Positions 42,991 through 43,403 of a DNA stretch of 64,000 bases are shown one piece after another. This stretch comes from Eledone cirrhosa (taxonomy: Eukaryota). The position numbers and the translations under genes are program-made. The stretch is taken from positions 301,072,001-301,136,000 of the forward strand of contig OZ024742.1 in the NCBI GenBank assembly GCA_964016885.1, read 5' to 3'. The notes under the pieces were generated by a model. It ran no database searches. It saw only the letters and a program-made list of their open reading frames with translations, and had not been told where the DNA came from. Within the stretch, counting starts at the first letter, position 1. Each line of letters starts with the position of its first letter.

Positions 42991-43403
42991 CTAGCGATTA
43001 GGTCTTCAAAATGTTTATTATAAACATACAGAATATTTTCGAATATTCTATGTCTATATTCACATATATATCGCTATTTCAGAGCATTTATTCCAATTTC
43101 TAATTTCTGCCGGACCGGCAACCGCTCTTTCAAACCAGTTCCTGTACACGGCTAAGTATTCTATAAGTCTCTAGCTGTGTCATTCTCGATAAAAGCACTG
43201 GATATGTAGTCCTGAAGATTTCAAATAAGAATGAAACGCGTAGATTACTTCCTTGCTTTTATCGAGAATCTAATTGTAATACGTGACGTATTCTATTCTA
43301 TAGCGATTAGGTCTTCAAAATGTTTATTATAAACATACAGAATATTTTCGAATATTCTATGTCTATATTCACATATATATCGCTATTTCAGAGCATTTAT
43401 TCC
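42991..43403 (+). mobile_element. Hammerhead-containing mini-element: 309-bp period with 103-bp terminal direct repeats
   Basis: 42992-43094 equals 43301-43403; embedded in (TA)n. Confidence 0.75.
43182..43269 (+). ncRNA. Type I hammerhead ribozyme with palindromic helix III (PLE-type)
   Basis: gtagtc CTGAAGA t ttc aaataa gaa t GAA ACGCGT A gattac. Stem I is extended by attctcgataaaagca/tgcttttatcgagaat. Confidence 0.85.

What the first reader, a model, noticed from the sequence alone, without database searches (positions are those of the whole stretch)
42991..43403. Young 309-bp-period element with identical 103-bp direct repeats and a textbook dimer-type hammerhead
The core is intact with a GUA site and palindromic ACGCGT helix III. 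Stem I has 6 bp plus a bulged extension of 16 perfect bp. The 1.33-unit structure is what reverse transcription running past the start of a circular or tandem RNA would leave. Identical repeats imply a recent insertion.
Basis: partly seen in the sequence, partly recalled or inferred. Interest (0 to 1): 0.75.

Follow-up and report, generated by a model that had tools for sequence, protein, structure and literature searches.

The report
Penelope-inserted hammerhead retrozyme, one-armed copy
This 412-base stretch is a short copy of a young non-coding repeat family, present in thousands of units in this genome, that carries a predicted self-cutting RNA fold; its copies end in the same way as those of Penelope-type jumping genes, which likely copy it into TA repeats, probably from a small RNA circle.

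Summary
Observation confirmed: exact 103-bp repeats 309 bp apart and a type I hammerhead. The stretch is a 5'-truncated, one-armed copy of a young ~310-nt tandem family (at least 7,733 hammerheads) inserted in (AT)n. The ends are not freely permuted: 5' ends fall at any phase, but 3' ends sit at two fixed sites about 30 nt apart (1,176 and 1,030 exact ends), none at the ribozyme cut. The 103-bp repeat is the gap between a random truncation and one fixed site. Many copies are back-to-back arrays, and 54 of 54 such pairs join one short and one long end; an autonomous Penelope-like element here does the same (40 of 44). Units within an insertion are mostly identical, while insertions differ. This fits Penelope-type priming of both strands, most likely on a circular monomer. 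Cleavage, the circle and the partner enzyme are untested. It is a new member of a known kind (animal non-LTR retrozymes); the one-sided tail is published qualitatively. This scan noted the same family and pattern before on other DNA of this genome.

The parts
42992..43403 (+). whole insertion: one arm of 412 nt, 1.33 units of the ~310-nt family, 5'-truncated
42992..43094 (+). first copy of the 103-bp repeat (unit positions 1-103); starts at this copy's 5' truncation point
   Evidence: 5' ends of other copies are scattered
43301..43403 (+). second copy of the 103-bp repeat; ends at the family's fixed long end (site B)
43206..43248 (+). type I hammerhead: stem I, CUGAAGA, stem II with U-U base, GAAA, palindromic helix III, GUA; predicted cleavage after 43242
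   Evidence: weak Rfam HH9 match; array-wide variants spare the core
43182..43197 (+). 5' strand of the 16-bp stem I extension
   Evidence: 4 compensatory pairs in the sister family
43254..43269 (+). 3' strand of the 16-bp stem I extension
43339..43358 (+). 8-bp hairpin with a UUCG loop just before the short end (first copy 43030-43049); kept as a hairpin in the sister family; candidate protein-binding signal (inferred)
43372..43380 (+). family short end (site A, unit 72-80, an internal AT run); not used by this copy
43403..43406 (+). family long end (site B, unit 103-106) joined to (AT)n; this copy has G at 43404 where most copies have A
42987..42991 (.). five junction bases at the 5' end that match neither the unit nor the TA flank directly; origin unresolved
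42816..42986 (.). left TA-rich target minisatellite
43405..44806 (.). right TA-rich target minisatellite; shares the TGTTTG variant with the left flank

Best explanation
The stretch is a 5'-truncated, one-armed copy of a young non-coding ~310-nt hammerhead repeat (an animal non-LTR retrozyme) that was likely inserted into an (AT)n tract by a Penelope-like reverse transcriptase-endonuclease, probably copying round a circular monomer RNA. Shown: tandem arrays, (AT)n targets, two fixed 3' ends about 30 nt apart, scattered 5' ends, back-to-back arms with one short and one long end, near-identical units within an insertion. Inferred steps: (1) arrays are transcribed, neighbouring hammerheads pair through the palindromic helix III and cut out monomers, and a host ligase closes them; (2) the Penelope protein, likely a dimer, makes a staggered cut in (AT)n and each 3' end primes cDNA at one of the two internal start sites; (3) each cDNA runs for anything from a few bases to many turns; (4) repair joins the two cDNA ends by short homology. 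In this copy only the long-end arm is left, after 1.33 turns. My odds: retrozyme mobilised by a Penelope-like enzyme about 0.9; two-strand priming about 0.8; circular template about 0.65.
For: Copy number: 7,733 exact hammerhead-core matches, 1,176 short ends and 1,030 long ends followed by (AT)n, 0 ends at the cleavage site, 0 in reversed-pattern controls. Ends: 93 of 103 arm 3' ends at the two sites; 105 5' ends without a significant cluster (best 12-nt window p = 0.09), 2 of 105 within 5 nt of the cut. Pairing: 54 of 54 divergent neighbours within 20 kb on C1 up to 222.5 Mb are short+long, p = 3e-17. An autonomous RT + GIY-YIG element with 12,162 short and 10,636 long ends in (AT)n shows 40 of 44. 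A 13-bp target duplication flanks a two-armed copy that landed outside (AT)n (L123). 28 of 43 inversion junctions overlap by short homology. Single template: in 43 loci (321 units) units differ by 0.63 within and 3.3 between insertions, 26 haplotypes, both arms share the majority sequence in 20 of 25; one array shows about 27 units in one arm. Structure: a collinear 313-nt sister family keeps the core, the U-U at the base of stem II, both ends and 4 compensatory pairs in the extension. Papers: two internal start sites, a 30-40 bp tail, both strands cut and extended and a predicted dimer for a Penelope protein (PMC11167929); circular RNAs from coral, mussel and axolotl retrozymes (PMC7229834).
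Against: No RNA evidence was obtained, so the circle and cleavage are inferred. Eight of nine Xenopus retrozyme dimers did not cleave in vitro (preprint), and the Anolis Penelope hammerhead needs protein and is dispensable for insertion. Some arrays carry variants shared by several units of one arm (L053, L060, L128, L143), which points to a second template, a linear multimer or later expansion. Core conservation is not significant on its own (0 of 21 array-wide variants in 16 core positions, about 1 expected; 5 of 68 single-unit variants). No autonomous element with a matching terminal repeat was found in 79 GIY-YIG loci. Exceptions to the pairing rule exist: 4 of 44 in the autonomous family, one sister-family locus (L155/L164) and the irregular L020.
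Confidence: 0.65

Rival explanations
1. Same Penelope-type two-strand insertion, but the template is a linear, uncut multimeric transcript of an existing array; no circle is needed and the hammerhead may do little in vivo.
For: Unprocessed RNA was the dominant substrate for the Anolis protein (PMC11167929). Several arrays have variants shared by non-adjacent units. A homogeneous source array would also give homogeneous daughters.
Against: 26 different haplotypes each spread across whole arrays need a one-unit bottleneck many times; 0 of 15 shared minor variants occur in both arms, as in-register copying of one linear array would give. Long arms would have to escape many adjacent hammerheads. 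5' ends do not pile up at the cut site.
Confidence: 0.2
2. Short insertions like the window copy are the primary product and the long arrays arose afterwards by slippage or unequal crossover (the satellite route discussed in the 2026 preprint).
For: Runs of neighbouring units sharing a variant (L143, L053, L128). The preprint's discussion proposes local amplification.
Against: Both inverted arms are often multi-unit and identical to each other in very young insertions; expansion would have to act fast on both arms of most loci.
Confidence: 0.08
3. The unit is simply the pseudo-LTR of an autonomous Penelope-like element not yet found, and these copies are its truncated stubs.
For: It has every end feature of a Penelope terminal repeat; only 79 of 10,596 candidate GIY-YIG loci were looked at.
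Against: Units follow each other head to tail with no ORF between them in all arrays mapped; only 1 of 59 loci is joined directly to a Penelope ORF, whose own terminal repeat does not align to the unit.
Confidence: 0.07

Closest known systems
Animal non-LTR retrozymes (Cervera and de la Pena 2020, PMC7229834, parts 2-4 of 6 read; Li, Clavereau and Pollet 2026 preprint 10.64898/2026.07.22.740005, parts 1-3 of 5 read)
   Same: Non-coding tandem repeats of 150-450 bp, one type I hammerhead per unit, low GC, highly self-paired, no LTR features; the U-U at the base of stem II recalls axolotl HHR_Amex2; Penelope-like elements proposed as the mobiliser.
   Different: In the parts read, those papers do not map insertion ends; here there are two fixed 3' ends, (AT)n targets and two-armed arrays with one end type per arm. 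Expression and circles, shown there, are untested here. No sequence match to a Penelope terminal repeat was found here, unlike 21 of the Xenopus matches.
Insertion units of endonuclease-bearing Penelope-like elements (PMC8557442 and PMC3846280, passages; PMC11167929, parts 1-2 of 4)
   Same: [quoted passage not shown]
   Different: No ORF; arms of many identical short units; the one-sided tail is counted here (54 of 54) rather than described.
Twin priming of L1 (recalled; three papers seen only as search listings)
   Same: Both cut strands prime cDNA and leave an inverted segment joined by short homology.
   Different: L1's second primer anneals at variable internal places and only one arm ends at the element's 3' end; here both arms begin at fixed neighbouring sites.

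Membership tests
Animal non-LTR retrozyme | Tandem repeats of 150-450 bp with a type I hammerhead in each unit | tested here: met
   310-nt units in arrays; core motif once per unit. The window copy itself has one hammerhead.
Animal non-LTR retrozyme | No protein coding, no LTR/PBS/PPT organisation | tested here: met
   No ORF between units in the mapped loci; the apparent terminal repeats vary in length from copy to copy. PBS and PPT were not searched for separately.
Animal non-LTR retrozyme | Self-cleavage of the transcript | not testable with these tools
   Motif intact; helix III palindrome forms a -7.5 kcal/mol duplex between two copies.
Animal non-LTR retrozyme | Expression as linear and circular monomer RNA | not testable with these tools
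   Needs RNA data or a blot; see Tried and rejected.
Penelope-mobilised insertion | Two 3' ends 30-40 nt apart (tail), tail on one end of inverted units | tested here: met
   Sites at unit 72-80 and 103-106; 54 of 54 pairs mixed.
Penelope-mobilised insertion | 5' truncation, inverted 5' copy, AT-rich target | tested here: met
   13-bp target duplication at L123.
Penelope-mobilised insertion | An identified autonomous partner with a related terminal repeat | tested here: inconclusive
   None in 79 of 10,596 candidate GIY-YIG loci; the abundant element joined to one array does not align to the unit beyond TA flank.
Autonomous Penelope-like element | RT plus GIY-YIG ORF between pseudo-LTRs | tested here: not met
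   No such ORF in the window copy or between units; 1 of 59 loci abuts one.
Rfam hammerhead families | Score at or above the gathering threshold | tested here: not met
   0 hits; HH9 16.4 bits against 52.

The most novel reading that the evidence does not exclude
A dimeric Penelope-type enzyme primes both ends of one staggered DNA cut on a single ribozyme-made RNA circle, one subunit at each of two fixed start sites, and rolls out two mirror-image arrays; the circle borrows the enzyme from an element unrelated to it in sequence, as the hybrid insertion at C22:10.73 Mb (autonomous element's short end on the left, retrozyme long end on the right) suggests.
Probability: 0.35. Interest if true: 0.75.

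Novelty: new member of a known kind. Interest (0 to 1): 0.5.

Why it matters
The papers read propose that animal retrozyme circles are reverse-transcribed by Penelope-like enzymes and state that the mechanism is still open. This young family records the event thousands of times, names two start sites on a 310-nt RNA and sits beside a young intact Penelope-like ORF, so the published in vitro assay can test both the partner and the reason why the Penelope tail lies on one arm only. The window copy itself is a minor, truncated member.

Tried and rejected
Free circular permutation of both ends: rejected, 3' ends are fixed. Ends set by ribozyme cleavage: rejected (0 matches; 2 of 105 5' ends near the cut). 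The 103-bp repeats as LTRs or a target duplication: rejected, their length varies among copies. An apparent pile-up of 5' ends at unit position 1 was partly an artefact of the query's edge; after re-framing, the best window was not significant. Search for an autonomous parent: nothing in 79 GIY-YIG loci; 30 loci of the sister family held no attached Penelope ORF apart from the separate neighbour at L148. Sequencing runs: no RNA holder listed. Three coded runs each give one 340-nt contig that closes on itself (310 + 30), but the same runs also hold pieces of the Penelope ORF, so tandem DNA explains it and it says nothing about a circle. Rfam: no call. Clade of the autonomous element: not tested by a tree; its C-terminal GIY-YIG and CX4CxxC linker fit the description of Neptune/Nematis in PMC8557442 passages. 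The host looks like an octopus from recalled repeats; not tested. Literature searches for a prior description listed no paper on this family or on a counted one-end-per-arm rule; subscription journals and Repbase were not searched, and the supplements of PMC7229834 and of the preprint could not be read and may list this family or a figure of the insertion model.

Full report
1. The observation. The repeat is exact over 103 bp (42992-43094 and 43301-43403), period 309. Between the repeats lies a type I hammerhead: stem I of 6 pairs, CUGAAGA, stem II with a U-U at its base and three pairs, GAAA, the palindromic helix III and a GUA triplet that would be cut after 43242; stem I continues after a bulge in 16 perfect pairs. 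The unit folds better than 100 of 100 shuffles (z -4.09). Rfam gives no hit at threshold and a weak HH9 match (E 0.41). Both flanks are TA minisatellite.

2. The family. A search of the own genome with the 206 bases between the repeats gave 264 candidates, 40 scored, nearly all 98-100% identical. Exact patterns count 7,733 hammerhead cores, a lower bound. Mapping 59 loci shows head-to-tail arrays of ~310-nt units, from under one unit to 14 per arm in the fetched stretches and about 27 in one array listed, almost all bordered by (AT)n, with no ORF between units. Many are two arrays back to back, 3' ends outward.

3. The ends. In 58 loci (one of the 59 left out because it is cut by the fetch), 47 of 103 arm 3' ends lie at unit 64-82 (site A) and 46 at 98-114 (site B); ten lie elsewhere, several of them internal fragments. 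Forty of these loci were picked from the end or core pattern lists, so they are biased; in the 18 picked by the internal search the count, made by hand, is 26 of 32. Genome-wide there are 1,176 exact A ends and 1,030 exact B ends followed by (AT)n and none at the cleavage site. The 105 5' ends are scattered (best 12-nt window p = 0.09; 2 within 5 nt of the cut).

4. One end type per arm. Merging the listed A ends (100) and B ends (82 of 100 listed; 18 beyond the end of the A list dropped) on C1 up to 222.5 Mb gives 54 divergent neighbours within 20 kb, and all 54 are A with B (p = 3e-17 against independent choice); 74 ends had no exact-pattern partner, and several of these proved on fetching to have a variant partner end. 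Of 43 inversion junctions, 28 overlap by short homology, 8 are blunt and 7 have extra bases (BLAST can inflate overlaps). One two-armed copy outside (AT)n is flanked by a 13-bp duplication (L123), the geometry expected if a staggered cut leaves two 3' ends and each primes cDNA. Two apparent single arms carry a ten-base opposite arm (L059, L126); the five junction bases of the window copy are too few to read that way.

5. A Penelope-like element does the same. One array (C22:10.73 Mb, L051) is joined by a few bases of homology to a young element with a 785-codon open frame holding weak RT and GIY-YIG matches (both below Pfam's cut-offs), 1,340 candidates and near-identical top copies, its own different hammerhead, and 12,162 short and 10,636 long ends in (AT)n. 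Its divergent pairs within 5 kb on the first 43 Mb of C1 are short with long in 40 of 44 (p = 8e-9; 100 short and 91 of 100 listed long ends). At L051 the left end is this element's short end and the right end a retrozyme B-type end, as one event would give; a later insertion with a deletion could give it too, and n = 1. Its terminal repeat does not align to the unit beyond the TA flank, and 79 other GIY-YIG loci of 10,596 candidates held no matching repeat. The partner is therefore not identified.

6. Template. In 43 loci with 321 full units, units differ by 0.63 on average within a locus (65% of pairs identical) and majority sequences by 3.3 between loci, with 26 haplotypes; both arms have the same majority sequence in 20 of 25; none of 15 shared minor variants spans both arms (L127 and L140 each merge two neighbouring insertions). 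This is what repeated copying of one monomer gives. Against it, L053, L060, L128 and L143 have variants shared by several units of one arm. A circle is the best reading, not a shown one.

7. Selection on structure. The commonest array-wide variants are at hammerhead position 7 and in loop II; substitutions in the stems keep or improve pairing; 0 of 21 fall in 16 core positions against 5 of 68 single-unit variants, which is not significant. A sister family (2,950 candidates; 313-nt period) is collinear with the unit and keeps CUGAUGA, GAAA, the U-U plus three changed pairs in stem II, the extension with 4 compensatory pairs among 13, the hairpin before site A, and both ends.

8. What is known. 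Tandem type I hammerhead repeats expressed as circles, with Penelope-like elements as the proposed mobiliser, are the animal non-LTR retrozymes (PMC7229834, parts 2-4 of 6; preprint 10.64898/2026.07.22.740005, parts 1-3 of 5, which says the mechanism remains open and found cleavage in 1 of 9 dimers). Short palindromic helix III and dimer activity are described in PMC4209133 (passages). [quoted passage not shown] So the kind and the qualitative footprint are known; the counted rule and its presence in a retrozyme were not in the papers listed. Supplements that could bear on this were not readable. After my reading was formed, the scan's notes showed that other agents reached the same picture on other copies of this family and on other families; these are not independent support.

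9. Verdict. A real, young retrozyme copy of a known kind; the window copy is a minor one-armed member. The interest lies in the family-wide insertion footprint, which makes the proposed Penelope and circle steps testable. Interest 0.5.

Noticed in passing
L051 (G000:C22:10725500-10735400): Hybrid insertion: inverted pair of a young autonomous Penelope-like element whose right arm breaks off before the endonuclease and continues into a retrozyme array; short end on the left, long end on the right.
   Followed up: partly
L063-L087, L107: Very young, abundant RT + GIY-YIG element with its own hammerhead, an Asn/Thr-rich low-complexity stretch in the N-terminal part of its frame, and over 22,000 exact ends in (AT)n; candidate active Penelope for biochemistry.
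   Followed up: partly
L148-L177, L032:2420-2900: Older 313-nt sister family with a different hammerhead sequence (GUU triplet, 3-bp helix III) but the same layout and ends.
   Followed up: partly
L085, L097, L103, L183, L195, L204, L206, L212, L214, L217: Several further hammerhead families in loci taken around GIY-YIG hits; one has a stem II much like this family's.
   Followed up: no
window 41595-42921 (minus strand): Fragment of a non-LTR retrotransposon RT with a PHD-like finger, probably RTE-type (recalled), ending at the left TA flank of the element.
   Followed up: partly
window 32550-40993 and 48535-53845: Two very long TA-rich minisatellite tracts (8.4 kb and 5.3 kb) with strong GC skew.
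   Followed up: no
L114, L119, L123: Inversion junctions recur at unit 191/263, where the 16-bp stem I extension gives the two cDNAs a long shared homology.
   Followed up: partly
L053 units 7-8 from the 3' end: Two adjacent units of a different haplotype inside an otherwise uniform 11-unit arm: possible switch between two RNA templates.
   Followed up: no
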